Positions 4,658 to 26,931 of a DNA stretch of 47,953 nucleotides are shown here, piece after piece. The stretch comes from a virus. Taxonomy: Duplodnaviria > Heunggongvirae > Uroviricota > Caudoviricetes. The notes beneath the pieces were generated by a model. The model saw only the letters and a list, made by a program, of their open reading frames with translations, made no database searches and was not told the DNA's origin. How positions within the stretch are numbered: position 1 is the first letter of the stretch; each line of letters begins with the position of its first letter. The position numbers were made by a program, and so were the translations under genes. The stretch lies in the IMG/VR virus record IMGVR_UViG_2554235123_000011; one strand, given 5' to 3'.

Positions 4658-4669
4658 ACTTTTCCACCA

Positions 4670-5408: not shown

Positions 5409-5430
5409 AATTACCTCTCGCTTTTCTGCA

Positions 5431-5456
5431 ATAAAAAAGGCGCCATTTCTGGCGCC
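5431..5456 (-). terminator. Intrinsic terminator-like hairpin between J and lom
   Basis: GGCGCC-atttct-GGCGCC stem-loop with adjacent A/T run. Confidence 0.35.
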
Positions 5457-5475
5457 CGTATTGGGGTTATAAAAT

Positions 5476-8400
5476 TCAGCTAATCGTGATGCCTGCAGTG
5501 GCTTTCTTCATCACAACAACCAGCAAATCGCTGATACTTGCTGTGGGATACCAGCCATTTACCCACCATGCTGATACAGAAAACTCCAGCGTCATGTGGC
5601 CGCGACCAGCAGGCATATCAATAACACCACTGTAAATCAGCGTATTATCCAGCGCGGTACGGTTATAAATTTCAGCACCGTTTTTCCGTACTATCAGGCG
5701 GCATGACGAATAAGTATCGCTGTTCTCCCGCTCATGTCTGGCACCGCTGAAAGCCACCGCCGGAATAACAATCTGCCGGTTAAACGGCTGATCGTCATAA
5801 ACCCTGACGGTAATGGTTCCTGATGGCCAACGCTCCGGTGCACGGGAGTCACGGGGGAAAGCCTTACCCACTGTTTTAACGAGATCGCCTTCAATCTGGT
5901 TTGCAGACAGTTTCCCTCTGATGACACAGTTCTCGTTAATGGTGACATTATTGAGCGTGCCGGTATTCGCCGTGATGGCTCCACTGATATCCGCATTGCG
6001 GGCTGTCAGCCTGCCATCCGGCGTCAGGGAAAACGTAGGAGGATTGCCGGATGACGTGATGCTCACCGCAAACAGTCGCTTCAGGAACACGTCGTTCATG
6101 AACAGCTGATTCCCCTGCGCCACAAACAGCGGCGTGGTGTTGCCATTCTCCGGGGTAATCATCGCGATACGGTCCGCCTGCAGCAGAATACTGCTCAGCG
6201 TCTGACCATCAACATCCTCAATCCCCGCACCAATCCCGGCCACATAGGGAATACCGTTTTTTGTTTTCTGCACCTTCAGCATATACATGGCATTCAGCTC
6301 ATTGCGCGTGTCTGACTGAACCCGCTGGATTTGCTGTATGGTCACGGCCTGGTCACCCAGCTTTTTATCCGTGGTCGAGGTAATTTCACTCCCTTTTTTA
6401 TCCACGTACTGGCGGACCTGTGCTATCTGTCGGGCGTTTTCTGACTGCCCCTGGCTGACAGTCTGTGAGATTTCACTGCTCACCCGGTCCACTTTCTGGC
6501 TCACCTGCGCGATGGCCAGTGTCTGGTCCTCATTCTTTTTCGCAACCAGCTGCGTGAGGCTGTTTTCCGCCTTCCCGATTTTCCGGGTCACTTCTGCGAT
6601 ATCCGTGTCCATCCGCTGACGGATGTCTTCTTCCAGTTGCGTGACCTCCGTACGCAGCGCTGAAGCATCAATGCGCTCTTTCAGTGCCTGGCCCAGAAGC
6701 GTCTCATCTATCAGCCCCCGGAAAATTTCCAGATACCCTTCACCATCATTGCTGGGCTGCCCGCTGGCTTCCACAAAAGCAGATTTTCCCACCAGGTTGA
6801 CGCTTCGCACGTAAAACCAGAAATCCGTCCCCGGCTTAATCCGGCTCCCCTGGACAGTCCACTGACTGCCGGTCCCCAGATAACGGGCAGATTTTTCCAC
6901 CTGTGCCGTGTTCGTGATGCGTTTTTCTGAGAACCAGAATTCAAACTGTACCGTCGGGTCATACACCGCAAGACGCGGGACCGCCGTTATCTGAAAATAC
7001 CCCGGCGTCAGCTCAATCCGCGACGGTGCTGCCGGTGCGGCAATCCGGAAGGTGGTGGTCGCAGGTTCGCCCTGCTGGCCGTAGCTGTTAATGGCCCGCA
7101 CCGTCAGGGTGTATTCCCCCAGTGGCAGGCCGCTGAAACGGTGCTCCGTGTCTGCGGTGATGGCGGTGGTCACCAGTCTGGCATCCGTTCCCTTACCACT
7201 GGTCAGGCGCAGACTGAAGCGCACGCCCTTCACCACCCGCGGCGTGTCCCATTTAGCCTGCGCCAGATACTGGCCGTCAGCTGCGCTCACCTCCACCGTC
7301 AGGTGCTGCACTGCCGGTGGGATAACGCTGTTCAGGGTGCCTGACTGCGGCTCAAAGCGGGCCCCGTTATCCACGATGGCTTCTTTTTCAGGTACGTGCT
7401 GCACCGCCGTGATGGCAAAGGTGCCGTCCGTGTTTTCCCGGATGGAGACACAGCGGAACAGGCGACGACGCAGTGACGGCAGGGAGAGTCCCCACACACC
7501 GTATGTCTCCACACCATCCGGCAGGGTGCTGACCTGTATCCGGTCAGGCGCGGGGTGTGCGGTGATGGCCACGCTCGCCGGCTTACCGCTGCCGTTAATC
7601 AGATTAACAGTGGCCGTGCCGGTCTCCGGCAGTGTCACCTCCCGGTCCAGCGTCAGGGTACGGCTGGCGGCATCGATGGACAGGACACGTCCGCCGGTCA
7701 TGGTCCCGGCATAGTCGTTATCACAGATTTCAATGATGTCACCGGGTGTGTGACGCAGCCCCTGTGACCCGAGCGTGAAATCCACCGTCTGCGTTTCCAG
7801 CAGTTCGGTCTTTATCACCCACAGCCCGGCACGGTGGGCCTGACCGCGGCTGGTACAGCCGAACGCGTCCATCTTCAGCAGGTTGCGTCCGTAGCGCAGT
7901 ATGGCTTCCGGGTCTTCCACCAGTTCCGTGGAGGTCTGCCAGCCGTTCTGCGGGTCGGTGTAATTCACCTCCACTGCCGTGTGCCGGTCCTTCAGGGCAC
8001 TGAAGCTGTAGCGGAAACCCACGCCGTTATCATCCACCACCACATCGCTGTTGGTGTACGGCCACACCACATCCGACGGACGGTCCTGAACGAACGTCAG
8101 CGTCTGGCCGTTCCATACCGGCATACAGCGCATCGCAGAGCAGAAATCACTGAGAACGTCCCACGCCTTACGCTGTTGTGCCAGGTACGCATTAAAGGTC
8201 ATCCGCGGCTCGGTCCCCCCGAAACCATCCGGGACCGTCTGGTCGCAGTACTGCCCGATGGCATACAGCGCCCACTTGTCCACATCCGCCGCCCCCAGAC
8301 GTTTTCCCATGCCGTAGCGCGGGTGAGTCAGCATGTCCCACAGGCACCAGGCCGGGTTGTTGCTGTATGCCGGTTTCAGACTGCCGTCCCAGATACCACT

Positions 8401-9168
8401 GTACGTGCGTTTTTCCGGGTCATAGTTTGACGGCACCTGGATGATGCGACCGCGGATATGGTAGTTCACCGTCATCTGCTGGCCGCCGAACTGCTCCGCA
8501 TCCACCTGCAGCCCCACAATGGCCGTGTTCGGGTAGCACTGTTTCACATCGATGATTTCGGTGTATGACGACCACAGCGTCTTATTCTGCAGCTGGTCCG
8601 TGGTGCTGTCCGCCGTCTCCCTGACCATCCGGATGTTAAAGGGCCGGGGAGGCAGATTATCCAGAATCACCGAGGCCAGGAACTGCGAGGTGGTCTTGCC
8701 GTTAATGGTGACATCCTTTTCCGTCACCCAGCGGCCATTACGCTGTAACTGAATCAGAATCCGGACAGAGGAAGGATTACGGTCGCCCTTTGACGTGGTC
8801 TGCACCAGTGACTGCACCCCGAAGGTAACCCGCAGGCGGTCAATGTTCGCGGACGTAATGGTGCGCGTCACCGGTTTTGCCTTCGTCACTTCCACGCCCA
8901 GTCCGGTTTCAGCACCGGAGGACTCAAAGCCTTCCGGTGGTGTCTGCTCCTGCTCCCCGGCGCGCCAGACCGCCGTCACACCGTGTATCACGGGATTACC
9001 GTCCGTGTCCGTCAGCGGGGTTTTGTTCACCAGGATACTCTGCAGTCCCTTCACCGGACCTTCTATCGGTCCCTCACCAATCGCATCAATCACGCTCATC
9101 ATCTGCGTGGATTTGAGATTATCCTTCGCCTCACGAGGCGTGTGTGCCTTACCGCCACCTTTTCCCAT
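5476..9168 (-). CDS. J: Host specificity / central tail fibre protein J (1230 aa)
   Basis: Size, position after I, and N-terminal similarity to lambda gpJ (MGKGGGK...); contains a long heptad-like coiled-coil segment. Confidence 0.95.
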
Positions 9169-9269
9169 ACAGCCTTCCCCTGAATAAATTAACCGCCACT
9201 TGCCATTCCGTACAGAAGTCGGATATCCTTCGCCCGAAAAGCATGAAACACATTTCTGCCATGCTAAAG

Positions 9270-9307
9270 AGAAACCCCGGTATCAGCAGATACCGGGGTT
9301 TTCTTTC
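9270..9307. terminator. Strong bidirectional intrinsic terminator-like hairpin in the I-J spacer
   Basis: 10-bp GC-rich stem CCCCGGTATC/GATACCGGGG (9275..9284 and 9289..9298), 4-nt loop, T-rich tracts on both strands. Confidence 0.5.
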
Positions 9308-9373
9308 ATGCCCACCGATAATCCTGTTGGTTAAAACCGGTAATGGCATAAAAATTCTGAATATCTTCACATT

Positions 9374-9401
9374 TTCACAAACTGACTGTGGCGCGTATAA
9401 T
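9374..9401 (+). promoter_or_regulatory. Sigma70-like promoter on the plus strand (antisense to the tail operon)
   Basis: TTCACA, 16-bp spacer, TATAAT (9396..9401). Confidence 0.35.
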
Positions 9402-9407
9402 TTCTCT

Positions 9408-9505
9408 GCGTTAATTTTTTTGTCGTGATATAAGAATAATTCCTTACACTTAATCTTCGTAACTCTCCCGCAGTTCCTGTCCGCGATCACTGCGGGATTT
9501 TTTTA
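9408..9505 (+). ncRNA. Candidate small RNA (~100 nt) transcribed antisense to the tail operon in the I-J spacer
   Basis: Starts ~7 nt after the TATAAT; ends at hairpin CCCGCAGT...ACTGCGGG (9467..9496) followed by ATTTTTTTATT; no convincing ORF. Confidence 0.35.
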
Positions 9506-9511
9506 TTCTTT

Positions 9512-10192
9512 TTACCCCTGCCGCCCGATAACCACGACCTTTCCGCCCCCGCCTTCATCACGGGTGCTGATGTCCTGGGATATACGGCGGGAGCCAACCA
9601 GCATTTCCCCGTAAGGCACCGGCATCGGGTTCCCCTGGGCAATCATGTTATCCAGCGAGGAAAAGTACGTGTTCTGTCTGCCGTTATCCGTTGCGCGGTA
9701 ATCCGGTGTTTTTGCCTTCGGGGCCAGCATCTGGGCCACACCGCCCAGTATCATGCTGGCACCCAGTGAAAACAGCATTGTGGTGGCAGAAAAACCGCCG
9801 GCACTCAGGGCTGTACCCCATAACGCCATCGAGGCACCGGCCGTGAAGAAAGAGCCCACGATGGCTGCCGCCCCCAGCACAATCTGCAGTCCACCCTTTC
9901 CGGCCCCGGCCAGTCGCGGCACAATGTGGATGACCGTTCCCTCACCCAGCTGTTCGTGAAGACGGGCGTACACCGCCTCCGGTGCCGTGTCATCACCGGC
10001 AATACGTATCTGGTACCAGCCTTCGTTCATCTGACGGCGAAAGCCCGGCATCTGCATCGACAGGGCGCGAATGGCTTCCGCTGCCGTGTTCACATACAGG
10101 CTGAGGCGGCGGCCAAATCGTTGTAAATCCCCGTGAAGGCAGATGCGTGCCAGTGGCGGTGACGCCAGACAGAATGCGTTCGTCGTTGCCAT
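9512..10192 (-). CDS. I: Tail assembly protein I (226 aa)
   Basis: ARICLHGDLQRFGRR..., Gly/Ala-rich hydrophobic middle, position and size as lambda gpI. Confidence 0.9.
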   Translation of the reverse strand: MATTNAFCLASPPLARICLHGDLQRFGRRLSLYVNTAAEAIRALSMQMPGFRRQMNEGWYQIRIAGDDTAPEAVYARLHEQLGEGTVIHIVPRLAGAGKGGLQIVLGAAAIVGSFFTAGASMALWGTALSAGGFSATTMLFSLGASMILGGVAQMLAPKAKTPDYRATDNGRQNTYFSSLDNMIAQGNPMPVPYGEMLVGSRRISQDISTRDEGGGGKVVVIGRQG

Positions 10193-10833
10193 TTTTCGGA
10201 ATACCTCTCCCGTTTACTCAGTTGTTCAGGCAGATGGTGAAGCAGCTCACCGTTACCGCAGTAAATGGCGGCATGGTTCGGTACCGAAGCACCAAAGCAG
10301 CACAGCAGAATATCGCCCGCCTGTGCAGAGGACAGGGGCACCCGGTAAAAGCCGGTGACCGCCATATTGTCCAGGTAAAGGTTCTGGCCGTTGCGCCACC
10401 AGTCATCCTCGCGATGAAAATCCGGCATTTCAGTCCCCGCCAGATGATAAGCATCCCGGAACAGCGTGTAACAGTCCGTCACCCCGTGCTCAAAGCGCCG
10501 TCCCGTCAGATGTGGCACACAGCGGAATTTGTGAATGTCACCCCGGCAGACCAGCCACCAGGGCAGTGCGCTTTTTATCTGCAGCCGCCGGTCAGCCTCG
10601 CTCAGCCAGGGCAGCCCACCGGGATGACTGTGGACCAGTGCCACAATCTCCCCCTGCATCTCTGCCCGCAGCCAGTCTTCCGGTGCGATACGAAAATACG
10701 CCTCCGGCTCCGCGGAAATATTCACACAAGGGATATACCACTCCCCCTCCGGCGTGCTTATCACGAAGCCGCACGACTCCGCAGGCGCACACCGCCGGGC
10801 ATGTGCCAGAATCGCTGATTCAGTCTGTGTCAT
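10090..10833 (-). CDS. K: Tail assembly protein K (JAB/MPN plus NlpC/P60-like, ~247 aa); start taken at MTQTESAIL...
   Basis: HSHPGG JAB motif; lambda gpK-like; the longer ORF to 11094 would overlap L and is rejected. Confidence 0.85.
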   Translation of the reverse strand: MTQTESAILAHARRCAPAESCGFVISTPEGEWYIPCVNISAEPEAYFRIAPEDWLRAEMQGEIVALVHSHPGGLPWLSEADRRLQIKSALPWWLVCRGDIHKFRCVPHLTGRRFEHGVTDCYTLFRDAYHLAGTEMPDFHREDDWWRNGQNLYLDNMAVTGFYRVPLSSAQAGDILLCCFGASVPNHAAIYCGNGELLHHLPEQLSKRERYSEKWQRRTHSVWRHRHWHASAFTGIYNDLAAASACM

Positions 10834-10843
10834 AAACCGGGAT

Positions 10844-11542
10844 TTACTGCGAAAGTTTATTAATGGAAAGGAAACCGCCAAAATTGCCGACATTCCTGCG
10901 CAGTTCACACCCGCGCATGCACTTGCTGCATCTGTCCTTACGGATATCCGTGGTGGGTTTATCGAACTCATCCGCCACAGCCCCGCCCGTGTAACCACAC
11001 TCATCAGAGCGGTAGGTCCACATACAGGTGTTCGCCAGCATGATACGACCGGGAAACAGCGCCCCGTCCGTCTCGGTCGGTGTGGCCAGCACAAACGAGG
11101 CCGTCATGGCTGTCAGCGCTGACATCTGCTCCACCACCCACCGGTCCGTCAGCTCCTGCTCCGGGTCGGCCTCCGGATTGCCCGCAACGAAATTCACCGC
11201 ATCCAGAAAACGGGCATACACCCGGCGGCGGACCACCGTGGCCCCCACCAGACTCTGCAGGTCTTCCGCCATCCCGGTGACCAGACCGAACAGATTGGAC
11301 ACCGTCAGCGACGGTCTGGCACTGCTGCCCTTCCCGCTCATCTCAAAGCCACTCCCCTCAATCGGGTACGCCTGATATTCACGCCCCTGCCAGGTCACCG
11401 GCTCCCCTTTTTCATTCAGCTCATTGCAGAAAAAATACCGCTCACCGCCCTGCACCGTCAGGTCGATTTCCCAGAGTACCACCCGCGGTGACTGCTCTGA
11501 CTTAACCGACTCGTTCAGACTTTCTTCGTGAATATCCTGCAT
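10844..11542 (-). CDS. L: Minor tail protein L (232 aa)
   Basis: Same length as lambda gpL, conserved position; C-terminal Cys cluster. Confidence 0.9.
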   Translation of the reverse strand: MQDIHEESLNESVKSEQSPRVVLWEIDLTVQGGERYFFCNELNEKGEPVTWQGREYQAYPIEGSGFEMSGKGSSARPSLTVSNLFGLVTGMAEDLQSLVGATVVRRRVYARFLDAVNFVAGNPEADPEQELTDRWVVEQMSALTAMTASFVLATPTETDGALFPGRIMLANTCMWTYRSDECGYTGGAVADEFDKPTTDIRKDRCSKCMRGCELRRNVGNFGGFLSINKLSQ

Positions 11543-11871
11543 CAGTTCACCACCTGCTTAAACTCCGCGCTGAACTCAACGCGCAACATCCCGACCCGCG
11601 CAGACCACCCGGCACAGATCACCTTTATCTGCCGGTATGCATAGGGTGGCTTCCACAAAAATGCCTTCCAGCCACCGTGCTCTGCCAGGAACGCTTCCAG
11701 ATGCCGGGCCTCCTCCCGGGTCACGGAAAGCGTCACCCTGTATGTTTTCAGGTCAGCATTCAGCCCTGCCGCCATACGCTGTGAGTACCCGTCACCAAAA
11801 CGCACTTCACGCACCGATGGCTGCGAGTTCACCTCCATATCCGGCTTCACTTTCCAGCGAAATGTTTTCAT
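11542..11871 (-). CDS. M: Minor tail protein M (109 aa)
   Basis: Same length and position as lambda gpM. Confidence 0.9.
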   Translation of the reverse strand: MKTFRWKVKPDMEVNSQPSVREVRFGDGYSQRMAAGLNADLKTYRVTLSVTREEARHLEAFLAEHGGWKAFLWKPPYAYRQIKVICAGWSARVGMLRVEFSAEFKQVVN

Positions 11872-14429
11872 CGCCCGCTCCCCGATAACAGACCGCCATC
11901 ACGCAACTGCAGCCGGAGCTCATCCTGCGCACCTTTACGGGCCATCTCATACACCGCTTTCATCAGCTGCGGCCCGGCCTGTCCGTTGATACCGTCGTTC
12001 TGAATCACCACGTGATTGTTCTGATTAAAATTAATGCCTTCGGCCCGCCGCATCTGCGCCGGACTTCCGGCAGCACCCACATACCCCCCTTCCGCATAGC
12101 CCCGCATCAGGCGGTACAGGTTCCCGACACCAATCCGGCTGGTTGCCTCCTTCGTGAAGACAAACTCCCCGCGGTGGACAATCCCCGCTGGCTCATATTT
12201 GCCGCCGGTTCCCGTAAATCCTCCGGTCGCAAAATGGAATTTCGCCGCAGCTGCCTGAATGGCTGTACCGCCTGACGCGGATGCGCCACCACCAACAGCC
12301 CCGCCAATAGCGCTGCCGATACTCCCGACAATCCCCACCATTGCCTGCTTCAGCAGAATTTCTGTCATCATGGACAGCACGGAGCGGGTGAAGCTGCGCC
12401 AGTTCTGCTCACTGCCGGTCAGCATCGCCGCCATATTCTGTGCAATACCATCAAAGGTCTGCGTGGCAGCACTTTTTACCTGCGACATACTGTCCGTGGC
12501 ACTCTCTTCCCACTCACTCCAGCCGGACCTGAGGCCTGCCATCCAGTTCCCGCGAAGCAGGTCTTCAGCCGCCCAGGTCTTTTTCTGCTCTGACATGACG
12601 TTATTCAGCGCCAGCGGATTATCGCCATACTGTTCCTTCAGGCGCTGTTCCGTGGCTTCCCGTTCTGCCTGCCGGTCAGTCAGCCCCCGGCTTTTCGCAT
12701 CAATGGCGGCCCGTTTTGCCCGTTGCTGCTGTGCGAATTTATCCGCCTGCTGCGCCAGCGCGTTCAGGCGCTCCTGATACGTAACCTTGTCGCCAAGTGC
12801 AGCCAGCTGGCGTTTGTACTCCAGCGTCTCATCTTTATGCGCCAGCAGGGATTTCTCCTGTGCAGACAGCTGGCGACGTTGCGCCGCCTCCTCCAGTACC
12901 GCGAACTGACTCTCCGCCTTCCACAAATCCCGGCGCTGCTGGCTGATTTTCTCATTCGCTCCGGCATGCTTCTCCAGCGTCCGGAGTTCTGCCTGAAGCG
13001 TCAGCAGGGCAGCATGAGCACTGTCTTCCTGACGATCGCCCGCAGACACCTTCACGCCGGACTGTTTCGGCTTTTTCAGCGTCGCTTCATAATCCTTTTT
13101 CGCCGCCGCCATCAGCGTGTTGTAATCCGCCTGCAGGATTTTCCCGTCTTTCAGTGCCTTGTTCAGTTCTTCCTGACGGGCGGTATATTTCTCCAGCGGC
13201 GTCTGCAGCCGTTCGTAAGCCTTCTGCGCCTCTTCGGTATATTTCAGCCGTGACGCTTCGGTATCGCTCTGCTGCTGCGCATTTTTGTCCTGTTGACTCT
13301 GCTGCTCAGCCTTCTTTCGGGCGGCTTCAAGCGCAAGACGGGCCTTTTCACGATCATCCCAGTAACGCGCCCGCGCTTCATCGTTAACAAAATAATCATC
13401 CTTGCGCAGATTCCAGATGTCGTCTGCTTTCTTAAACGCAGCCTCTGCCTTAATCAGCATCTCCTGCGCGGTATCAGGACGACCAATATCCAGCACCGCA
13501 TCCCACATGGATTTGAATGCCCGCGCTGTCCTGTCTGCCCAGGTCTCCAGCGTGCCCATGTTCTCTTTCAGGCGGCGGGTCTGGTCATCAAACCCTTTCG
13601 TTGCGGCCTCGTTCGCCGCCTGCAATGCCCCGGTTTCATCGCCGGAACGCTGCAACTGAGCAACATACGCAATCTGCTCCGCCGTCACGTTATGGAACTG
13701 CTTCGCCATCGCAATCAGCCCCGACGTCGGGTCAGTGGTCAGTTTTCCGAAAGCCTCTGCAACCTTGTCCACCTCCACACCGGATGCAGAAGCAAAACGC
13801 GCGACACTCTGGTTGATGGCATCAAACTGTTCACCACCACGCACACCGGCATTCACCATGGCTGCCAGTGACTCACTCGCCTGGTTAAACGTCAGCCCTG
13901 CGGCCTGTCCGGCTCTGGAGAGCGTCAGCATGCGATCGGCAGTCAGTCCGGACTGATTACCGGAAAGAACCAGGGTTTTATTAAACGCTGAAAGCGTGGA
14001 ATCTCCCTGGTACCAGGCGTACACCAGCGCACCTGTCGCCACCGCCAGCGAGGTGACCCCGACCATCGGCAGGGTGATCGCACCGGCAAGCCCCCTGAAC
14101 ATGGGGATCATCCCGCCGAAGGAGTCCTTCACCTGACCGCCCTGTTGCAGCAGGATCAGCCAGGGATTCTGACCACCGGCAAGCTGCGTGGCGATATCCG
14201 TAAACTGTGCGGGCAGGGTTCGCATGGCCGCTTTATACTGCCCGACGGAAATCCCTGCTTTTTGTGCAGCCAGCGCCTGGTGGCTCAGCCCCTGCTCAAC
14301 GACAGTTGCGGTTTTTCTGGCGTCAGTATCCAGACCTGAAAAATGACGCCTTACCCGGCTCATCTGCTCATCGAAACGGACCGCATCCAGACTCAGGTCA
14401 ATAACAAGATCACCAACCGGCTGGGACAT
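11868..14429 (-). CDS. H: Tail tape measure protein H (853 aa)
   Basis: Same length as lambda gpH and near-identical over long stretches as remembered (e.g. ...KDGKILQADYNTLMAAAKKDYEATLKKPKQ...). Confidence 0.95.
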   Translation of the reverse strand: MSQPVGDLVIDLSLDAVRFDEQMSRVRRHFSGLDTDARKTATVVEQGLSHQALAAQKAGISVGQYKAAMRTLPAQFTDIATQLAGGQNPWLILLQQGGQVKDSFGGMIPMFRGLAGAITLPMVGVTSLAVATGALVYAWYQGDSTLSAFNKTLVLSGNQSGLTADRMLTLSRAGQAAGLTFNQASESLAAMVNAGVRGGEQFDAINQSVARFASASGVEVDKVAEAFGKLTTDPTSGLIAMAKQFHNVTAEQIAYVAQLQRSGDETGALQAANEAATKGFDDQTRRLKENMGTLETWADRTARAFKSMWDAVLDIGRPDTAQEMLIKAEAAFKKADDIWNLRKDDYFVNDEARARYWDDREKARLALEAARKKAEQQSQQDKNAQQQSDTEASRLKYTEEAQKAYERLQTPLEKYTARQEELNKALKDGKILQADYNTLMAAAKKDYEATLKKPKQSGVKVSAGDRQEDSAHAALLTLQAELRTLEKHAGANEKISQQRRDLWKAESQFAVLEEAAQRRQLSAQEKSLLAHKDETLEYKRQLAALGDKVTYQERLNALAQQADKFAQQQRAKRAAIDAKSRGLTDRQAEREATEQRLKEQYGDNPLALNNVMSEQKKTWAAEDLLRGNWMAGLRSGWSEWEESATDSMSQVKSAATQTFDGIAQNMAAMLTGSEQNWRSFTRSVLSMMTEILLKQAMVGIVGSIGSAIGGAVGGGASASGGTAIQAAAAKFHFATGGFTGTGGKYEPAGIVHRGEFVFTKEATSRIGVGNLYRLMRGYAEGGYVGAAGSPAQMRRAEGINFNQNNHVVIQNDGINGQAGPQLMKAVYEMARKGAQDELRLQLRDGGLLSGSGR

Positions 14430-14823
14430 ATCTCACACCTCCCGGAATCCCCGCTGAAGCCATCATTAATGCGGCATCATCCACCATGACATCCGCCACA
14501 TCCGCAGACGATAAAATATCGCCCCCTCCGTCCCCACCGAACCGGACGCCTCCGGCAAGTCCTGCCGCTTTCTGCATCAGCATTTTGTCCTCATCCGGCC
14601 TCTCCACCTGCTCTTCCTCATGCCGGGGGACAAGCAGACTGAAATCAGAGGGATGCATATCCGGATCGCAAAAAAACAGGCTGAGTACAGCGTACGTCAG
14701 CCCGGAAAAATGCATATCCAGCTGGGTATCCTGAAAATAATGCGTGCGGTAAAAACGGTGCCAGTCGGCATATTCGGTGGATGTCATCCCGGCAAGCATG
14801 GCGCGCCAGTCGGGTCTCCCCAT
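14410..14823 (-). CDS. T: T portion of the G-T tail assembly chaperone (expressed by -1 frameshift from G)
   Basis: ORF in the -1 frame overlapping the G 3' end; slippery motif G GGA AAG present near the end of G (about 14870..14880). Confidence 0.7.
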   Translation of the reverse strand: MGRPDWRAMLAGMTSTEYADWHRFYRTHYFQDTQLDMHFSGLTYAVLSLFFCDPDMHPSDFSLLVPRHEEEQVERPDEDKMLMQKAAGLAGGVRFGGDGGGDILSSADVADVMVDDAALMMASAGIPGGVRYVPAGW

Positions 14824-14849
14824 CTCACGCGCCAGTCTGAGGGCAAAGT

Positions 14850-15281
14850 TCAGCTCACCGTCGAAGACTTTCCCGCAGAAAAATCATCATCAGTCAGCGT
14901 GTTATTTTTCGCCACTTCAGTAATATCAGTATCCGGACGAACAGCTTCGATCATCCCGGACAGACGCAACACCACGTCTTCCGCCCGGGCAATGGCATCA
15001 GCAGGCCAGGTGGTGAGCACTTCCTGCTCTATCTTCATCACGGCCTCATTCATTGACGGTGACTGCGTTTTCTGTGGATGGTTATGCCACAGGGACATCG
15101 CCACCAGAAACGCGCCGGTTCTGACAAGATCTTCCACACTCACCTGCAGGTTGCCGCTGGCTTCAGCCTCTTCTGCCCGCCGTTTCAGGAGGGCAAGATG
15201 CTCAATACGCTACAGCGCAGACAGCTCAGAAAGCGTGACGGATACACCGTTATATTCAAATTGTTCTGTTTTCAGGAACAT
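14850..15281 (-). pseudogene. G: Tail assembly chaperone G carrying an in-frame TAG at codon 24 (15210..15212)
   Basis: Minus-strand reading from ATG 15281: MFLKTEQFEYNGVSVTLSELSAL-TAG-RIEHLALLKR...; lambda G has Gln at this position; remainder of G intact. Confidence 0.55.
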
Positions 15282-15299
15282 CGCTTATCTCTCAGCTCT

Positions 15300-16049
15300 T
15301 TAGCTACCCGGCACATTATTAACGGTAATTTCAGCCACCGCAGCAAACTGACCATTACCGGAAATCACAGGGATGCTGACTTTTCCATCCTTAACCCCCG
15401 TCACAGTAATCGTCATATCTTTCACGCTAATGGTGGCTTTTGATGGATCGGCGGAAATCGCCCTGAATGTCTTATCCGTTGCATTTTCCGGTTCCACAGT
15501 AACGGTCAGGGTGGTTGTTTTCCCTTTTGCCACCGTACCGGATGTCGGCGTCACCTTAATCGCACTGACCGGCGTAATTTTGCTGCGTTCTTCCGCTACA
15601 GAAGGTTTACCCACGTTAGTGACTTTCACCGTGCGGGTGATCACTTCTTTCGCCGTCACGGCCTTACCGATACTGCTGACCCAGCCACGAAACACATCCA
15701 CCGTGCCATTCGGAAAACGGATTTTATAGGCCCGGACATCGCCGCTTTCAAACCAGCCTATAAGCCCTTTCTGACCTTCCTCTCCCGGTTTCCAGGCCAG
15801 CGTAAAACTGGTATCACCTGCAGATTTCTGCCCCTGCCCGGTCGCGGTCCAGTCTGCGTCTTCATCATCCAGGTAGTTATCATCGTAGGATTCTGCCGTC
15901 ATCTCGCCCGGCGTCAGATCCTTCACCTTAGCCAGTCGCTGCCAGTCAGCGTCTGACAACGGGTTTGCATAAGCATCACCCTTGCCGTTGTAAACCCACA
16001 GAGTGGTACCGGCACCTTTTACCGGCTCCAGGGGATTTGGTGTTGCCAT
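15300..16049 (-). CDS. V: Major tail protein V (249 aa) with C-terminal Ig-like domain
   Basis: lambda gpV-like sequence and position. Confidence 0.9.
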
Positions 16050-16056
16050 ATCGTCC

Positions 16057-16452
16057 TCACATCTCGTATGTAATGGAATAAGTCAGATCCGCAGAGCTCC
16101 ATAACGCCATATCGTCATCACGACGATACTCATAGCCCTGCGTAACCATCGTGGTAATCAGTCCTGCCAGTGCCGGGATCGCAGTCATCGCCGGATAAAT
16201 CCGGCTTTCCATCCACTGATCAAGCTCTGAATCCGGTACCTGTGCCGGTAAAAACACCTCAATATGCAGTGTGGCCCGCCAGGTATCTGCATCCAGCTCT
16301 TCACCGGTATACTCTGCATCCGTCAGATAAACCGCGATCGCAGGAAAATCCTCTTCGTCAAAAACAACGGGGCGACCATCAAACAGCGTCGCCCCGTGTT
16401 CATGCTGCTCGAGTGCATCCAGCACTGCAGCACGGATATCAGTGTGTTTCAT
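16057..16452 (-). CDS. U: Tail terminator protein U (131 aa)
   Basis: Same length and position as lambda gpU. Confidence 0.9.
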
Positions 16453-16982
16453 CGTTTTATCGCAATCCTCAGTTGTTGTTTCAGCGCGGATGCCAGTTCT
16501 CCGGGCAGGCGTTCACGCCGGATACGGTCAACATTCTCATCAAACGCCTGTTTCAGTGGGGCCGCCATCGGGATTTTCACCACATCAATAGGGTAACGGT
16601 TTTTCCCGGCCACACGCTGCATGACATGCCAGCGACCGTTTTTTAATCGCTGAATGAATGCCCGCTGATACCGATGCTGACCGGCTTTAAGTATGCTGTT
16701 CGGACGACGGCCCAGCATCCTGATCCCCAGCTTAATCACTGGAAGATCACCGCGGTTAACGATAATTTTTGCGTTCGGATTTCTGACCGTCGCCCGTTTC
16801 AGTCTGGACCGTTCCTTAACCAGTTTCCGGCGTACCTTTGTCTCCCGGGCAACCTGTGATGAAGACTGATTAATCGCCGTTGTGGCCACGCGGTTAATCG
16901 TCATTGCTGAAGCCGCCGGAATGGCGTTTTTACGAACCCGGCTCAGATTATCAATCGCCTGATCAAGCCCTTTTATCGCCAT
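16449..16982 (-). CDS. Z: Tail completion protein Z (177 aa)
   Basis: Position between FII and U; lambda gpZ-like. Confidence 0.85.
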   Translation of the reverse strand: MAIKGLDQAIDNLSRVRKNAIPAASAMTINRVATTAINQSSSQVARETKVRRKLVKERSRLKRATVRNPNAKIIVNRGDLPVIKLGIRMLGRRPNSILKAGQHRYQRAFIQRLKNGRWHVMQRVAGKNRYPIDVVKIPMAAPLKQAFDENVDRIRRERLPGELASALKQQLRIAIKR

Positions 16983-16997
16983 AATTTCCCCCTGCGT

Positions 16998-17351
16998 TTA
17001 TCGTCGCCGGTTAACAGCGGGTGGTTGCCCACGGTTGAGCCAGAGATAACAGCTTCCCCCGTCATCCGGAGAAACACGATCCACCCAGAACATCTCGCCG
17101 TTAATGGTCAGCGTGTCACCACGCCGCACGGCACGCACCGTATCCGTCCGCACAAATAATGACGGGCTGCTTCCTTCAATACGGACCCCGCCACCGGCAA
17201 AACCCAGCGACTCCGGATCGTCAAAAACCCCCTGAACTTCGCCGCCACGTTGTGCTCCGGAGGTGAACTGCGCACGGATCCCCATCACTTCAACAATCGT
17301 ACTGTCCACCCCGGCAAGGGCGGCATCAAAGGCATTCTGAAAATCACGCAT
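16998..17351 (-). CDS. FII: Head-tail connector protein FII (~117 aa; start uncertain, ORF open to 17387)
   Basis: C-terminus ...VDRVSPDDGGSCYLWLNRGQPPAVNRRR as in lambda gpFII. Confidence 0.8.
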   Translation of the reverse strand: MRDFQNAFDAALAGVDSTIVEVMGIRAQFTSGAQRGGEVQGVFDDPESLGFAGGGVRIEGSSPSLFVRTDTVRAVRRGDTLTINGEMFWVDRVSPDDGGSCYLWLNRGQPPAVNRRR

Positions 17352-17718
17352 AAACAGCCATTCCACCATCAACGTGTGTTTTTGCATCTGAGGACATAAT
17401 CAGAATCACCCGACCAACATCCGCAAGCTCAACGGATTCCCCCGTTTCACCATCAACGCCACAGAGATGGAGGCAGGTCAGAACTCTGATGCGCGTTAAC
17501 GCGCCGGATGTTTCCTCACGAACATCATGAGCCGCGGTTTCCCGCTCCCGGATATCCATATTCATAACCTGTACATCATCGCCGGATGACTGCATTTCCT
17601 CTTCCCATTCTGCCACCCGCTGCGCTATCTCTGCGGCACTCCCGGATATATCCGGCTCACGCCCCAGAATCAGGGCCAGTTCATCAAGCCGTTTCAGATT
17701 TTGCTCTTTCGTTGCCAT
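17344..17718 (-). CDS. FI: DNA packaging protein FI (~124 aa; start uncertain, ORF open to 17766)
   Basis: Position between E and FII; acidic protein. Confidence 0.65.
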   Translation of the reverse strand: MATKEQNLKRLDELALILGREPDISGSAAEIAQRVAEWEEEMQSSGDDVQVMNMDIRERETAAHDVREETSGALTRIRVLTCLHLCGVDGETGESVELADVGRVILIMSSDAKTHVDGGMAVYA

Positions 17719-17769
17719 ATCAGCCCCCTGTGAAAAAAGACACGGGGGCATTTCGCCCCCGCTCACGGA

Positions 17770-18798
17770 TTATTTCACCTGTACCACCACAAACTCATCC
17801 GGGTCCGGCAACACCATCAGCGGCGCGGACTGCGTCATGGTAAATTCACGGGCGGGATCCCCTACCGTCAGCCAGTGTTTCGGATAACGGGAAGAGGCCA
17901 CCACACCTTCGGACAACGCCTGAGCATCCTGAATGGCACCGTAACAACGGATCCCATCTGCAGCAGTATTCCCCAGAACCAGCATGCCATCTGGAAGATA
18001 ACGTTTTTCGATACCGTCTTCTGCTATATAAGACGTTTTCGCCACCACAATGGCCAGATCGCCGTAATACCCCTTGAAGGACACCACTGCGCCCAGATCT
18101 TTCACTGCCGTTTCGAGTTGAGAATTTGAACCGCGACGGGTATCCAGTTTTTCGCGGAACAGCTTAAAACCATTCAGAAGACGCCAGCCGGTACCGTCCA
18201 TAATGGCAATATTCACAAGACCGCTGGCCTGGTCGCAGTAGAGGTCAATATCATGTGTAGGATCGAACGTGTCACGATCCTGTTTTGACCACTCCTTACC
18301 ACTACCCTGAGTGATGTTATTCTTCGTCGACCTGCCAAAATCGACCTCAATTTTCTCGAACTGGTCTCCTTCCATGGTGTATTTGCCATACAACACAGCA
18401 TTTACCGCCTGCATTTCTTCCACCTGGACAATGGCGTGCTCTTCCTGTTTGAGGTTATCGGTAATGATACGCAGACGGCGGTAAGCCGGATCATTCAGTT
18501 GAGATGGATCTTCACCAGGAAGGCGCTCAACCGCCTGCTGGTAATTAAATTCGTGTTTCGGCTTGACGTAGCCCGGACGCAACACGCGGGTTTCACCACC
18601 ACGATGGCGCAGCACTTTTCCTTCAACGATCGGGGAGACATAGGCCGCCACCGGCGTTTTTCCGGTAATTTTGTCCAGCATCACCTCTTCGGTGTGGAAA
18701 TTCACCGTACGGCGGAAAAACAGCTCCAGAAATAGCGCACGGAATTTAACTTTTTGTTCGGTATAACCGAGTAACTGGCGGGTCGTAAACAATCCCAT
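17770..18798 (-). CDS. E: Major capsid protein E (342 aa)
   Basis: lambda gpE-like length and sequence. Confidence 0.95.
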   Translation of the reverse strand: MGLFTTRQLLGYTEQKVKFRALFLELFFRRTVNFHTEEVMLDKITGKTPVAAYVSPIVEGKVLRHRGGETRVLRPGYVKPKHEFNYQQAVERLPGEDPSQLNDPAYRRLRIITDNLKQEEHAIVQVEEMQAVNAVLYGKYTMEGDQFEKIEVDFGRSTKNNITQGSGKEWSKQDRDTFDPTHDIDLYCDQASGLVNIAIMDGTGWRLLNGFKLFREKLDTRRGSNSQLETAVKDLGAVVSFKGYYGDLAIVVAKTSYIAEDGIEKRYLPDGMLVLGNTAADGIRCYGAIQDAQALSEGVVASSRYPKHWLTVGDPAREFTMTQSAPLMVLPDPDEFVVVQVK

Positions 18799-18855
18799 AA
18801 ATCAGTTCCTTTCATTCAGAAATCAGTCAGGCCACCATGGTGGCCTGATAACGTG

Positions 18856-19203
18856 TTACGGCAGAGCCGCGTGACTCAGGGCTGTGCCGGCAAAGGCATT
18901 TGCCTTTTTGTGTTCATCCACACTTTCAGGCCAGTGGATTGCCTCCGTCGCAAAGGTTCCCGACTTGTAATACGTCAGCGCTGTCTCTGTGCCTTCAAGC
19001 GGCAGTACCAGTATGCCAACCGCACTACCGGCTTTCTGTCCATCCCAGACCACCAGTTTCCCGGTGGCTTCATCCAGCATCAGGGGCGTCAGAGCCGGTG
19101 TTGCGGAAGAAATCCCGCTGCTGCCTGTGGCGGTATGAGCCGGATCATTACCGGCAAAAATACGTACTTCCGCACGCTGTTCAGTGATGGTTTTCGTCAC
19201 CAT
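18856..19203 (-). CDS. D: Head decoration protein D (115 aa)
   Basis: lambda gpD-like. Confidence 0.9.
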   Translation of the reverse strand: MVTKTITEQRAEVRIFAGNDPAHTATGSSGISSATPALTPLMLDEATGKLVVWDGQKAGSAVGILVLPLEGTETALTYYKSGTFATEAIHWPESVDEHKKANAFAGTALSHAALP

Positions 19204-19239
19204 TTTGTTAAAACCTCATATTGATGGTCAGCACTGACT

Positions 19240-20688
19240 TCATGGCATGGCCATGAGCATTTTCACGTCCGCATCACCGTCTGCTGACGTCTGTGACACG
19301 CCACCCCGCACCGCTGCCGGTGAATGATTCGCCATGAAATGTTCAAACAGGGCGGTTGTGGATGCAGAGACCGGTTCGGCCTTACCTGATCCCGCAGCCA
19401 GCACAGCCCGGGCGTTCTCCACGGTCATTCCCGGGCAGGCCGCCAGTTTTTCAGCCTGCGCTTCTGCCCCTTTTGCCTCATCCAGGGCCATGATCTGATC
19501 ACGAAGTGAGGGCCCGGCATCCGCCAGTGGTGCAGCCGCCAGTTGTTCACGACCGTTCGCTTCTTCACACGCCATAATGCGATCGGCTTCACTCTGCGCG
19601 GATGCCACCGGCTGCTGCGGTGCCGCCGCGGCCAGAATCGCCCGGGCCTGTTCAACGCTCATGCCCTGTTGCCCTGCCAGCATCGTGGCAAGCTGTTCAC
19701 GTCCTTTCGCTTCCTGGCATGTCAGGATCCCCATCACTCGCTGGTTCTCCTGCACGGCGGCTTCCGTTGCAGTTAATTGCGGCATAGTGCCTCCTCTGAC
19801 ATTACTGTTCAGCGCCGTGGCCATCACACTGATGGCATCCGACGCATTGATTAATTCATCCGCCAGCCCGGCCTCAATGCCGGACTGACCTTCAAAAACG
19901 GCGGCCTCTGTTCCCGTGACCGCATCCACAGACAACCCGGTATACATCGCCACTTTTTCGGCAAACATCCGGTGCGCCGCATCAATCCGCTGCTGCATGT
20001 CCTGGCGAACCTCTGCCGGCAACGCTTCAAACTGATTGCCATCCACCTTGTGCGCCCCGGCATAAATCAGCGTGATATCCACACCGGCCTGCGCCAGATG
20101 ACCGGCATAGCTGACATGGCTCATCATCACGCCAATGGAGCCGATACGGGATGTCTGGGTAACCAGCCGTCGGGAGCAGGCCGACGCCAGCAGCATGGCT
20201 GCAGAACAGGCAGTGTCATTGCACAGTGCCCAGACCGGCTTCTGCTGACGGAGGCGGTAAATCATGTCAGCGCAGTCAAACGCGCCGGCGGCCTGCCCGC
20301 CCGGACTGTCAATGTCCAGCAGTACGCCCCGCACCTGGCTATCCGCCATTGCCTGCTGAAGACAGGCGACAATGCCGTCATAGCCTGTCATTCCGGAAAA
20401 TGGCCGCATACCGCCCAGCCGGTGCACCAGCGTGCCGGTCACCGGCAGTACAGCAATACCGTTCACCACCCGGTAAACACGGGCCGGTCGTTTACCTCCG
20501 GCCATGTACTCGTCCGTTTCAGCCAGCATTCCGGGAGCATCAAGCTGTACCTGTTGTTGTGGTACCGAAAGACTTGCTGCCCCTATCTCGCGCCCGAGCG
20601 CGCAAAAGAAAACCCGCGCATAGGCGGGCTCCAGAAGCAGCGGTTCATTGAATGCTGCGGCAATAATGTGTGAAAGATTACGTCTCAC
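19240..20688 (-). CDS. C: Head maturation protease / scaffold C (with nested Nu3-like C-terminal region), 482 aa
   Basis: S49/ClpP-like peptidase region followed by an Ala/Glu-rich scaffold-like tail; position between B and D. Confidence 0.85.
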   Translation of the reverse strand: MRRNLSHIIAAAFNEPLLLEPAYARVFFCALGREIGAASLSVPQQQVQLDAPGMLAETDEYMAGGKRPARVYRVVNGIAVLPVTGTLVHRLGGMRPFSGMTGYDGIVACLQQAMADSQVRGVLLDIDSPGGQAAGAFDCADMIYRLRQQKPVWALCNDTACSAAMLLASACSRRLVTQTSRIGSIGVMMSHVSYAGHLAQAGVDITLIYAGAHKVDGNQFEALPAEVRQDMQQRIDAAHRMFAEKVAMYTGLSVDAVTGTEAAVFEGQSGIEAGLADELINASDAISVMATALNSNVRGGTMPQLTATEAAVQENQRVMGILTCQEAKGREQLATMLAGQQGMSVEQARAILAAAAPQQPVASAQSEADRIMACEEANGREQLAAAPLADAGPSLRDQIMALDEAKGAEAQAEKLAACPGMTVENARAVLAAGSGKAEPVSASTTALFEHFMANHSPAAVRGGVSQTSADGDADVKMLMAMP

Positions 20689-22270
20689 GTGGTGTTGTCT
20701 CCTCTTCCGGCCTGCGACTCTCCGCTATCTGCTGCTGATACGCCTGCGCTATCCACACCGGACGTGAGAGTCCGGCTTTTTCCCGCTCTGCAGATTCCCT
20801 GACCTGCTGGCGGAAAATGTCCTGATAATCCTCGCCCATCAGCGCCAGCTCTTTCTCATACGTGCTCAGTCCGGCCTCAATGCGCATCACTGATTCCTGA
20901 ACCTCCTTGAGCCCGTCAATGGCCATTCTTCCGGCTCCAATCCACTCAGCCCGTGACCAGGCTGATCGCGCCTGATAAAAATCAAAACGTGCCCGTGGCG
21001 GACGAATAATCCCCCGAAGAAGTGCCTCTTCCAGCCAGCAGGAAAACATCTGCGTGGCCAGCCGGGACGCAATAAATTTTCGCCGCCCCATAAAATAGCG
21101 CCACGACTCATTGGCGGATGCGCGGGCACTTGAATAACTGACCTTCGAGTAATCACGGGACAACTGTTCGTAGGAAACGCCAAGACCGGCGGCGATATAC
21201 CGCAGCAGCGCCTGTTCAAGCGCCGAAAATCCATTGTCTGAATCCTGCGCGGTCTGAAGTTTCAGATCATCACCGGGGAAAAGGTGCGGAATTTTGACAC
21301 CGCCCAGCGTCACGCTATTCGTGTCATACCAGGTGGAGAACTTATCCAGAATATTAATAAGCGGATTATCCTTCTGCCCCTGCGGCGCACCGGCGATATA
21401 TTCAAAGGCCTTTTCGGTATCAAGGTCACTTTCAATCGTCGCTGCATACATCGCCTTCACTATGGCCGACTGAAGCTGTGTTGCCTGCAGGGAATCGAGC
21501 ATCTTCAGCCGTTCCATAACGCTGTAAAACTGATTAGCCCCACGGGTCTGCCCGTCCTCCACCGGCTCGAAAATATGCAGCATGGCCGGACGCCCGGTGG
21601 GAAGTTCACGCGGGATCCGTTCCCATCGTCCACTCCCGGAGAACGGAAAATCATCCTCACAGATATGGTACGCAACGGCACGACCATATCGATCGACCTC
21701 CACCCCGGCCCGCAGAAAACGGTTCCCGATACCATGTCCTGGCGTGTCCACCCGTTTCGGACTCACGGCTTTAAAACGCGTACGAAACAGTTGCGTGCTC
21801 TCCGGATCCCAGACCGGCTGCACAAAGATTTCGCCGTTAAACGCATGAACGCCCACACCTTCACGAATAAATTCTGTAAACGTGCGTTTCCCTTCCACGT
21901 CGATCTCGCCAAACACCCCTTCTGCGTATTCTGACCAGGCCGCCTCCACCTCATCGACAAAACTTTTTGTCGCGGTCTCCCGCATCCCCAACCAGCGCCA
22001 GTTCGGGCGGTAGCTGATAAGAAACATATGCCCGACAATGTGATCCTTATGCAGGGCCACCGCATTGGCCGCTATCCCGTTATTGCGCACCAGATCATCT
22101 GCCCGGGCATTCCCCAGACGCAACGCGGGCAGCAGGGCCGCATCGGCACTCTGCGCCGGTGGCAACCACTCCGCCATTTGCCCGCCAAATCCTGCGCCGC
22201 CCCCGTTGTAGCTGAGGCTCTCCCGAAGCGGAACGCCGTTCACATCAATCAGGACAGGCGTTCGTTTCAT
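20678..22270 (-). CDS. B: Portal protein B (530 aa)
   Basis: lambda gpB-like length and position. Confidence 0.95.
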   Translation of the reverse strand: MKRTPVLIDVNGVPLRESLSYNGGGAGFGGQMAEWLPPAQSADAALLPALRLGNARADDLVRNNGIAANAVALHKDHIVGHMFLISYRPNWRWLGMRETATKSFVDEVEAAWSEYAEGVFGEIDVEGKRTFTEFIREGVGVHAFNGEIFVQPVWDPESTQLFRTRFKAVSPKRVDTPGHGIGNRFLRAGVEVDRYGRAVAYHICEDDFPFSGSGRWERIPRELPTGRPAMLHIFEPVEDGQTRGANQFYSVMERLKMLDSLQATQLQSAIVKAMYAATIESDLDTEKAFEYIAGAPQGQKDNPLINILDKFSTWYDTNSVTLGGVKIPHLFPGDDLKLQTAQDSDNGFSALEQALLRYIAAGLGVSYEQLSRDYSKVSYSSARASANESWRYFMGRRKFIASRLATQMFSCWLEEALLRGIIRPPRARFDFYQARSAWSRAEWIGAGRMAIDGLKEVQESVMRIEAGLSTYEKELALMGEDYQDIFRQQVRESAEREKAGLSRPVWIAQAYQQQIAESRRPEEETTPRET

Positions 22271-22473
22271 AACCTCACTCCCAGCGGACGACGGCGACGG
22301 CGGGTTGTCCCCAGTACCAACTCAGCATCATTGATCGCACGGTTAAGCTCATCCAGAGAGGCCGCCGTATATTCAATTCTTCGTCCATCTTTCTGGACAG
22401 ACACCACCCGTTTACCGGTTAATAAATCAAGGCGCGCCTGACGCAGCGCCTGCAGTTCAGCGACTGTAACCAT
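22267..22473 (-). CDS. W: Head-tail joining protein W (68 aa)
   Basis: Same length as lambda gpW. Confidence 0.9.
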   Translation of the reverse strand: MVTVAELQALRQARLDLLTGKRVVSVQKDGRRIEYTAASLDELNRAINDAELVLGTTRRRRRPLGVRL

Positions 22474-26920: not shown

Positions 26921-26931
26921 TCGGTTTATGT

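What the first reader, a model, noticed from the sequence alone, without database searches (positions are those of the whole stretch)
15210..15212. In-frame amber (TAG) codon at codon 24 of tail assembly chaperone gene G
Reading G on the minus strand from ATG 15281 gives MFLKTEQFEYNGVSVTLSELSAL, then TAG, then RIEHLALLKR..., where lambda G has Gln (CAG). The rest of G, the G-T slippery site and T are intact. G and G-T are required for tail assembly, so this single C-to-T change would make the prophage tail-defective unless suppressed. Possible explanations are a recent inactivating mutation, a sequencing error, or a host amber suppressor. All other structural genes look intact.
Basis: seen in the sequence. 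Interest (0 to 1): 0.5.

Follow-up and report, generated by a model that had tools for sequence, protein, structure and literature searches.

The report
Private amber mutation in prophage G
One C-to-T change, found in no other public copy, puts a stop codon at codon 24 of the tail assembly chaperone gene of an otherwise intact lambda-like E. coli prophage, which is ordinary prophage decay or a base-call error.

Summary
On the minus strand, G runs from ATG 15281 to TGA 14850, and codon 24 (15212..15210) is TAG. The window is a complete 47,953-bp lambda-like prophage, integrated at the potB/potC junction in its relatives. It is 99.97% identical to copies in many E. coli genomes. In every relative checked, codon 24 is CAG (Gln), as in lambda.

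The 30-nt TAG context has 0 matches in 5,426 complete E. coli genomes, while the CAG version has 606 places in 540 genomes. A degenerate TAG-context pattern has 0 hits in the viral, metagenome and species-representative genome collections; the CAG control has at least 120 hits in the viral collection.

The window's three other amino-acid differences from its closest relative are each shared with other assemblies. All 61 genes annotated in that relative are uninterrupted here except G. The GGGAAAG slip site and the T frame are intact, and the window holds no tRNA.

Best reading: a recent, private nonsense mutation that removes both gpG and gpGT and should make the prophage tail-defective. A single base-call error cannot be excluded without reads. 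Programmed read-through is rejected, and a host suppressor is untestable here. This is ordinary and of low interest.

The parts
15210..15212 (-). In-frame amber codon TAG, codon 24 of G. The ancestral codon is CAG (Gln). The change is C-to-T on the coding strand, which is G-to-A at 15212 on the + strand.
   Evidence: The 30-nt TAG context has 0 matches in 5,426 complete E. coli genomes, against 606 places for CAG.
14850..15281 (-). Gene G (tail assembly chaperone), 143 codons plus a stop, interrupted at codon 24.
   Evidence: With Gln restored it matches Pfam PF06894 Phage_TAC_2 over residues 1-119, E = 1.8e-51. It is otherwise identical to WP_001309426.1 of the relatives.
14868..14874 (-). 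GGGAAAG slippery heptamer for the -1 frameshift that makes the G-T fusion. It is intact.
   Evidence: It sits at the same distance from the end of G as in lambda. GGGAAAG is listed as the lambda G/GT slip site in PMC3296357.
14410..14867 (-). T reading frame (-1 relative to G), translated only as the C-terminal part of G-T. It is intact but unreachable when translation stops at codon 24.
   Evidence: The conceptual G-T fusion matches PF06223 Phage_tail_T. The T ORF is identical to the relatives' WP_000533401.1.
15300..16049 (-). Major tail tube gene (V-like), immediately upstream of G. Intact.
   Evidence: (PF16461 and Big_2 on the identical protein).
11868..14429 (-). Tape measure gene (H-like), immediately downstream of T. 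Intact, with its own GGAGG ribosome-binding site. It carries the T378S lineage variant at 13297.
   Evidence: (the variant is on 14 other contigs, and the two shown carry CAG in G).
14850..15143 (-). Longest possible in-frame restart product: GTG at codon 47, 97 aa. There is no Shine-Dalgarno match upstream, and it lacks 46 of the 119 domain residues. It is not expected to be made or to function.
   Evidence: upstream sequence AAGCCAGCGGCAACCTGCAG. (it matches only profile positions 49-119).

Best explanation
The TAG is a very recent, strain-private nonsense mutation (CAG to TAG, Gln24 to stop) in gene G of a lambda-like prophage integrated at the potB/potC junction of an E. coli chromosome. 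Both products of the G-T region start at the same ATG, and the frameshift site lies 113 codons downstream of the stop. Translation therefore ends after 23 residues and neither gpG nor gpGT is made. In lambda, both proteins are needed to assemble the tail tube around the tape measure protein. After induction, this prophage should still excise, replicate, lyse the cell and fill heads, but it should make no functional tails and so almost no infectious particles. It is a first step of prophage decay with no sign of selection. Shown here: the base change, that it is private, that the rest of the element is intact, and the family membership of G and G-T. Inferred: that the base is real and not a consensus error, and the tail-less phenotype.
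For: The TAG is at codon 24, and the single mismatch to the relatives lies at 15212. The window aligns end to end with the prophage of strain 2017C-4173W12 at 99.97%. The 30-nt TAG context has no match in 5,426 complete E. coli genomes, while the CAG context has 606 places in 540 genomes. A degenerate TAG-context pattern gives 0 hits in viral, metagenome and genome collections. CAG gives at least 120 hits in viral contigs, CAH gives 1, and any codon not starting with C gives 0. The contigs shown that share the window's rare H variant still carry CAG. The other amino-acid differences from the nearest relative are shared polymorphisms: tail fibre E54G in 117 index blocks, H T378S on 14 contigs, Rha D231N on 10 contigs. 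There are no homopolymer indels against close relatives, which argues for a clean assembly: L019 differs by 1 SNP and 0 indels over 14.6 kb. All other CDSs are intact. G matches PF06894 and G-T matches PF06223, and the slip site is intact. Both gpG and gpGT are required for normal lambda replication (PMC3296357). Sibling copies of the same prophage are broken in other ways, for example ISEc10 in the portal gene of strain HSP60, so independent decay of this element does occur.
Against: There are no reads, so a single substitution error in the consensus would look exactly the same. The source genome was not found in any collection, so its sequencing method and its tRNA set are unknown. The phenotype is extrapolated from lambda. 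Low-level natural read-through of UAG by tRNA-Gln would restore the wild-type residue and may leave a small residue of activity. It is not known whether the intact form of this prophage is inducible at all.
Confidence: 0.75

Rival explanations
1. The T at 15212 (minus strand) is a base-call or consensus error in the assembly. The real prophage has CAG and an intact G.
For: The change is a single substitution seen in no other sequence, which is what an isolated error would look like. The source assembly could not be identified, so its quality is unknown.
Against: The rest of the window shows no error-like noise. It has no homopolymer indels against close relatives. Its three other amino-acid differences from the nearest relative are shared with other assemblies, and the hok/sok patch closely follows a natural allele. 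The five SNP sites share no sequence motif of the kind that methylation-linked systematic errors would produce.
Confidence: 0.18
2. The mutation is real but phenotypically silent, because the host carries an amber suppressor tRNA. A supE-like tRNA-Gln with a CUA anticodon would insert the original Gln.
For: CAG to TAG is exactly the change that a Gln-inserting suppressor reverses. Amber suppressors have been reported in some natural coliform isolates (my recollection of Marshall and Levy, Nature 1980; not checked here).
Against: The window holds no tRNA gene and no RNA family related to suppression. Suppressors are rare in wild E. coli. No relative carries TAG, so nothing suggests the allele has persisted long enough to depend on a suppressor.
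Confidence: 0.04
3. The knock-out of G is adaptive. It could disarm the prophage so that spontaneous induction releases no infectious particles, or it could remove the N-terminal chaperone core that an Avs17-type immune sensor recognises.
For: Avs17 is reported to bind the N-terminal core shared by gpG and gpGT (PMC12803255). The same prophage is independently broken in sibling strains.
Against: The allele occurs once and shows no parallel recurrence: 0 of 606 same-context copies, and 0 in the other collections. A single nonsense hit among about six differences is expected by chance about one time in five. No Avs gene was looked for or seen.
Confidence: 0.02
4. The TAG is a programmed read-through or recoding signal that belongs to normal G expression.
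For: None beyond the presence of the codon in an otherwise intact gene.
Against: It is not conserved. Every relative and lambda itself have CAG. No tRNA or recoding RNA element is present.
Confidence: 0.01

Closest known systems
Bacteriophage lambda genes G and T (gpG / gpGT tail assembly chaperones, J02459 9711-10549)
   Same: The position between the major tail gene V and the tape measure gene H is the same. It has the same Pfam families (PF06894, PF06223), the same GGGAAAG slip site 25 nt from the end of G, and Gln (CAG) at codon 24. Of the first 60 residues, 44 are identical.
   Different: This G is 143 rather than 140 codons and diverges in its C-terminal third. The gene here carries TAG at codon 24.
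Classical lambda sus (amber) mutants in gene G (my own knowledge of the Campbell sus collection; not checked here)
   Same: Both are an amber codon in G that should give a tail-defective phage on non-suppressing hosts and a viable one on supE-type hosts.
   Different: Those mutants were selected in the laboratory after mutagenesis. This one is in a wild prophage, with no evidence of a suppressing host or of selection.
Mutational decay of resident prophages (point mutations, IS insertions, deletions leading to cryptic prophages)
   Same: A single inactivating lesion sits in an essential virion gene of an otherwise intact, nearly identical prophage. Sibling copies carry different lesions, such as ISEc10 in the portal gene of strain HSP60.
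   Different: Only one lesion is present, so this would be the earliest stage of decay. Loss of function has not been shown experimentally.
Viable relatives: Escherichia phages PhiR12_1 to PhiR12_5 and phage 21
   Same: The head and tail module (window 9000-25000) is about 94% identical to the PhiR12 phages, whose records give E. coli C or K-12 MG1655 as host, and about 89% identical to phage 21. G/T/H is 98% identical to several PhiR12 phages.
   Different: These relatives have an uninterrupted G.

Membership tests
Lambda-type tail assembly chaperone G (Pfam PF06894 Phage_TAC_2) | Sequence match to the family profile above the curated threshold | tested here: met
   With codon 24 read as Gln: 173.6 bits against a cut-off of 27, residues 1-119 on profile positions 1-119 of 126.
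Lambda-type tail assembly chaperone G (Pfam PF06894 Phage_TAC_2) | Gene lies between the major tail tube gene and the tape measure gene | tested here: met
   V-like gene at 15300-16049, G at 14850-15281, T frame to 14410, H-like gene at 11868-14429, all on the minus strand.
Lambda-type tail assembly chaperone G (Pfam PF06894 Phage_TAC_2) | Uninterrupted open reading frame able to yield the full-length protein | tested here: not met
   TAG at codon 24. As written, the gene is a pseudogene of this family unless the stop is suppressed.
G-T programmed -1 frameshift pair (Levin, Hendrix and Casjens 1993, as cited in PMC3296357) | Slippery heptamer near the 3' end of G, with an overlapping -1 ORF that has no start of its own requirement | tested here: met
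   GGGAAAG at 14874-14868. The -1 frame is open to 14410 and gives a 290-residue conceptual fusion.
G-T programmed -1 frameshift pair (Levin, Hendrix and Casjens 1993, as cited in PMC3296357) | The -1 frame extension belongs to the T family (PF06223) | tested here: met
   51.6 bits against a cut-off of 25.9, residues 167-245 of the fusion.
G-T programmed -1 frameshift pair (Levin, Hendrix and Casjens 1993, as cited in PMC3296357) | Frameshifting actually occurs, and both products are needed for tail assembly | not testable with these tools
   Known for lambda (PMC3296357). For this prophage it is inferred from homology only.
Programmed stop-codon read-through / recoding site | The stop codon is conserved at the same position in related functional genes | tested here: not met
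   0 TAG against 606 CAG places in complete E. coli genomes. In viral contigs: 0 TAG or other non-C-initial codons against at least 120 CAG.
Phage-encoded suppressor tRNA system | A tRNA gene with an anticodon that reads UAG, carried in the element | tested here: not met
   ARAGORN finds no tRNA or tmRNA in the 47,953-base window. Rfam finds no tRNA either.

The most novel reading that the evidence does not exclude
The amber allele is real and is kept because it is useful or harmless in this host. One version is that the strain carries a natural Gln-inserting amber suppressor, so the prophage stays fully viable. The other is that loss of the chaperone was selected, either to stop release of infectious particles or to remove the trigger of a chaperone-sensing Avs17-type defence.
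Probability: 0.05. Interest if true: 0.45.

Novelty: already known. Interest (0 to 1): 0.1.

Why it matters
It matters little beyond annotation. If the base is real, this copy of a widespread potB/potC-site prophage should be scored as tail-defective rather than intact. Its G should be annotated as a pseudogene. The strain would be a natural equivalent of a lambda G amber mutant. The case also shows that an element a prophage predictor would call intact can be disabled by one base. If the base is an error, the only consequence is a correction to the assembly.

Tried and rejected
1. I guessed the element was an ST131 prophage. EC958 has an empty potB-potC junction, so I dropped that.
2. I looked for TAG-bearing siblings through the gene products a caller would emit.
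   - The 97-aa GTG-start fragment is on one contig, but that contig is a scaffold with a run of Ns and has CAG at codon 24.
   - The nine contigs carrying the 82-aa fragment all have it starting at a contig edge. The 84-aa fragment sits on a single 574-base contig, and most other fragments in that cluster are labelled partial by their sources.
   - The allele-specific antisense ORFs (227 aa and 121 aa) are not in the 15-billion-protein collection.
   - The 23-aa N-terminal peptide is on 38 NCBI contigs but is labelled partial by the source. It is too short for the contig look-up, so I read it as contig-edge truncation without proving it.
3. I tried to find the source genome through its rare protein variants (H T378S, tail fibre E54G, Rha D231N). 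I found siblings but no identical copy, and every sibling whose sequence reaches G has CAG. CP163799.1 is not in the annotated collection.
4. I looked for a shared sequence motif at the SNP sites, which would point to methylation-linked systematic error. There is none, although the ancestral sequence at the site is CTGCAG.
5. I looked for a tRNA or a recoding RNA in the window and found none.
6. A literature search for natural amber suppressors in E. coli returned nothing useful.
7. I did not run structure prediction or the large protein searches. Family membership was already unambiguous and they could not bear on a single-base question.

Full report
**The observation**

The minus strand of the window reads ATG at 15281..15279, then 23 sense codons (MFLKTEQFEYNGVSVTLSELSAL), then TAG at 15212..15210. 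The frame then continues open (RIEHLALLKR...) to TGA at 14852..14850, for 143 codons in all. Lambda G, fetched from J02459, has CTG CAG CGC at codons 23-25, where the window has CTG TAG CGT.

**What the window is**

The whole 47,953-base window aligns end to end, at 99.97% identity, with a prophage of E. coli strain 2017C-4173W12 (NZ_CP030768.1, 3934358-3982307). That prophage lies between potC and potB. Its gene order is that of a complete lambda-like element:
- integrase, excisionase and exonuclease;
- a repressor/Cro pair and replication genes;
- hokD, RusA and Q;
- holin, lysozyme and an Rz-like lysis gene;
- terminase, portal, protease, decoration and major capsid genes;
- FI, head-tail joining genes, and V, G, T, H, M, L, K, I, J;
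- a Lom-like gene, the tail fibre and its assembly protein.

The window's ends coincide with the ends of this element. The head and tail module is about 94% identical to the PhiR12 phages, whose database records give E. coli C or K-12 MG1655 as host, and about 89% identical to phage 21. The intact form therefore belongs to a family that includes viable phages. I first guessed it was an ST131 prophage, but EC958 has an empty potB-potC junction, so I dropped that idea.

**Identity of the gene**

With codon 24 read as Gln, the product matches Pfam PF06894 (lambda tail assembly chaperone G) over residues 1-119 at 173.6 bits. The conceptual -1 frameshift fusion also matches PF06223 (minor tail protein T). 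The heptamer GGGAAAG lies at 14874..14868, 25 nt before the end of G, exactly as in lambda. The -1 frame is open to 14410, where it overlaps the start of the tape measure gene (ATG 14429, preceded by GGAGG). The upstream neighbour is the major tail tube gene (15300-16049).

**Is the TAG shared or private?**

The evidence comes from several kinds of search.
- In the 1,001 bases around G, the best E. coli hits differ from the window at one position only, 15212.
- Over the first 25 kb, the best full-length, single-piece matches among 5,426 complete E. coli genomes have three mismatches, at 4497, 13297 and 15212.
- In a 30-nt query centred on the T, every 28-mer seed word contains the T. That query finds nothing in those genomes, while the CAG version finds 606 places in 540 genomes.
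- A degenerate pattern that allows synonymous variation around the TAG finds nothing in IMG/VR viral contigs, JGI metagenome contigs or the species-representative genomes.
With CAH it finds one contig, and with any codon not starting with C it finds none.

Gln24 is thus strongly conserved, and TAG is not a natural variant.

**The other differences**

The other differences between the window and its nearest relative are not private.
- The tail fibre variant E54G (4497) is listed in 117 index blocks of the large assembly collection.
- The tape measure variant T378S (13297) is on 14 contigs.
- The Rha variant D231N (43438) is on 10 contigs.
- The change at 43902 alters none of the annotated proteins.
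- The cluster at 34074-34109 follows the hok/sok allele of another strain.

The two contigs shown that share the rare H variant have CAG at codon 24. None of the loci I fetched is the source genome. Every sibling whose sequence covers position 15212 has the ancestral base there.

I also looked for the protein fragments that a gene caller would produce from a TAG allele.
- The 97-aa fragment exists once, on a scaffold that has a run of Ns in G and CAG at codon 24.
- The 82-aa fragment starts at a contig edge on all nine contigs that carry it.
- The allele-specific antisense ORFs are absent from the collection.
- A 23-aa N-terminal peptide is recorded on 38 NCBI contigs but is labelled partial by the source. 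That label marks a contig-edge truncation rather than a stop-terminated gene. I could not verify this directly because the peptide is too short for the contig look-up.

**State of the rest of the element**

All 61 CDSs annotated in the relative's prophage have uninterrupted counterparts of the same length in the window. Their proteins are identical except for one residue each in Rha, H and the tail fibre, plus the stop in G. The window has no homopolymer indels against close relatives. L019, for example, differs by one SNP and no indel over 14.6 kb. The assembly therefore looks clean, which lowers but does not remove the chance that the T is a consensus error. The five isolated SNP sites share no motif.

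**Mechanism and consequence**

Both gpG and gpGT start at ATG 15281, and the slip site is 113 codons downstream of the TAG. A ribosome that terminates at codon 24 makes neither protein.
- T has no independent translation in lambda, so the T frame would also go unread.
- The nearest in-frame restart is GTG at codon 47. It has no Shine-Dalgarno match upstream, and its product would lack 46 of the 119 domain residues.
- In lambda, both gpG and gpGT are needed for normal phage production, and they are thought to act as chaperones for the tape measure protein during tail tube assembly (PMC3296357).

By homology, the prophage should be tail-defective. I infer that excision, replication, lysis and head filling are unaffected and that infectious particles are essentially absent. 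From general knowledge I would add two points that I did not test. Q-antiterminated late transcription should limit Rho-dependent polarity on H to J. Rare near-cognate reading of UAG by tRNA-Gln would restore the wild-type residue at a very low level.

**Rivals**
- **Base-call error.** It gives exactly the same picture in the sequence and can only be settled with reads. I put it at about 0.18.
- **Host amber suppressor.** A Gln-inserting one would fully reverse the defect. The window has no tRNA, the rest of the host genome is not available, and suppressors are rare in wild strains.
- **Programmed read-through.** This is refuted by the lack of conservation.
- **Adaptive knock-out.** One example would be loss of the N-terminal chaperone core that Avs17-type sensors are reported to bind (PMC12803255). 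It has no support. The allele occurs once, and about 4-5% of random substitutions in this element would create a stop, so one nonsense change among about six differences is unremarkable.

**Comparison with what is known**

This is the natural counterpart of a classical lambda G amber mutant and an example of early prophage decay. Other copies of the same prophage are broken differently. Strain HSP60 has ISEc10 inside the portal gene. Two GenBank assemblies show single-base indels in L, J and H that may be real or may be long-read errors.

**Verdict**

With tools it narrows to a private, recent nonsense mutation (about 0.75) or a single base-call error (about 0.18). Nothing here is new in kind. 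Interest is low (0.1).

Noticed in passing
window 34074-34109 (inside the Rfam sok hit 34046-34220, minus strand): This patch has 5 substitutions and 3 extra bases relative to the otherwise near-identical relatives. It follows the hok/sok allele of cattle strain R1 except for two single-base indels. The 101-nt stretch has no exact match in 5,426 complete E. coli genomes (best 98%). It looks like a short gene-conversion patch from another hok/sok copy.
   Followed up: partly
L004 (NZ_CM137001.1, strain HSP60) 31085-33499, which corresponds to about window 21085: In this sibling strain the same prophage has an IS21-like ISEc10 element inserted in the portal gene, an independent inactivation of the same element.
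   Followed up: partly
L018 (CP163799.1) and L020 (GCA_964051825.1), over the stretch matching window 1-14657: These copies carry several single-base indels relative to the window. In L020, L is called at 179 aa and J is split into 325 and 908 aa. L018 has no H or J call. This could be real decay or long-read indel error, and CP163799.1 is not in the RefSeq complete set.
   Followed up: no
protein P0031 (the 23-aa N-terminus of G, window 15213-15281 minus strand): The exact 23-residue peptide that precedes the TAG is on record on 38 NCBI contigs as 'phage minor tail protein G, partial', one of them a 5.05-Mb contig. These are most likely contig-edge truncations at a repeat fork, but I could not check because the peptide is below the 30-aa limit of the contig look-up.
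   Followed up: partly
window 42513-42987 (+), 30215-30404 (-), 1090-1288 (-): Rfam matches above gathering score: DicF (42513-42564), isrK (42799-42875) and C4 antisense RNA (42900-42987) in the early region next to the Rha-family and dicB genes; STnc100 (30215-30404) near iraM; and IS009 (1090-1288) inside the tail fibre assembly gene.
   Followed up: no
window 1-1631: Window 20-163 is an 89% direct repeat of 1069-1212, the 3' part of the tail fibre assembly gene. The copy at the window edge is annotated in relatives as a tail fibre assembly remnant lacking its N-terminus. The two copies flank a SAM-dependent methyltransferase ORF at 324-992 (+).
   Followed up: no
window 25117-27262: The stretch between the lysis genes and the small terminase gene differs between relatives. 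The window and strain 2017C-4173W12 carry about 2.1 kb here, including a TonB-family ORF, where strain 50579417 has about 0.8 kb. It appears to be a variable cargo-gene slot.
   Followed up: no
attachment site, L003 1-360 and 48308-48540; L142 (EC958): In relatives the prophage sits at the 3' end of potB, next to potC. PotB is 287 aa in lysogens and 285 aa in EC958, whose potB-potC junction is empty, so integration rewrites the last codons of potB.
   Followed up: partly
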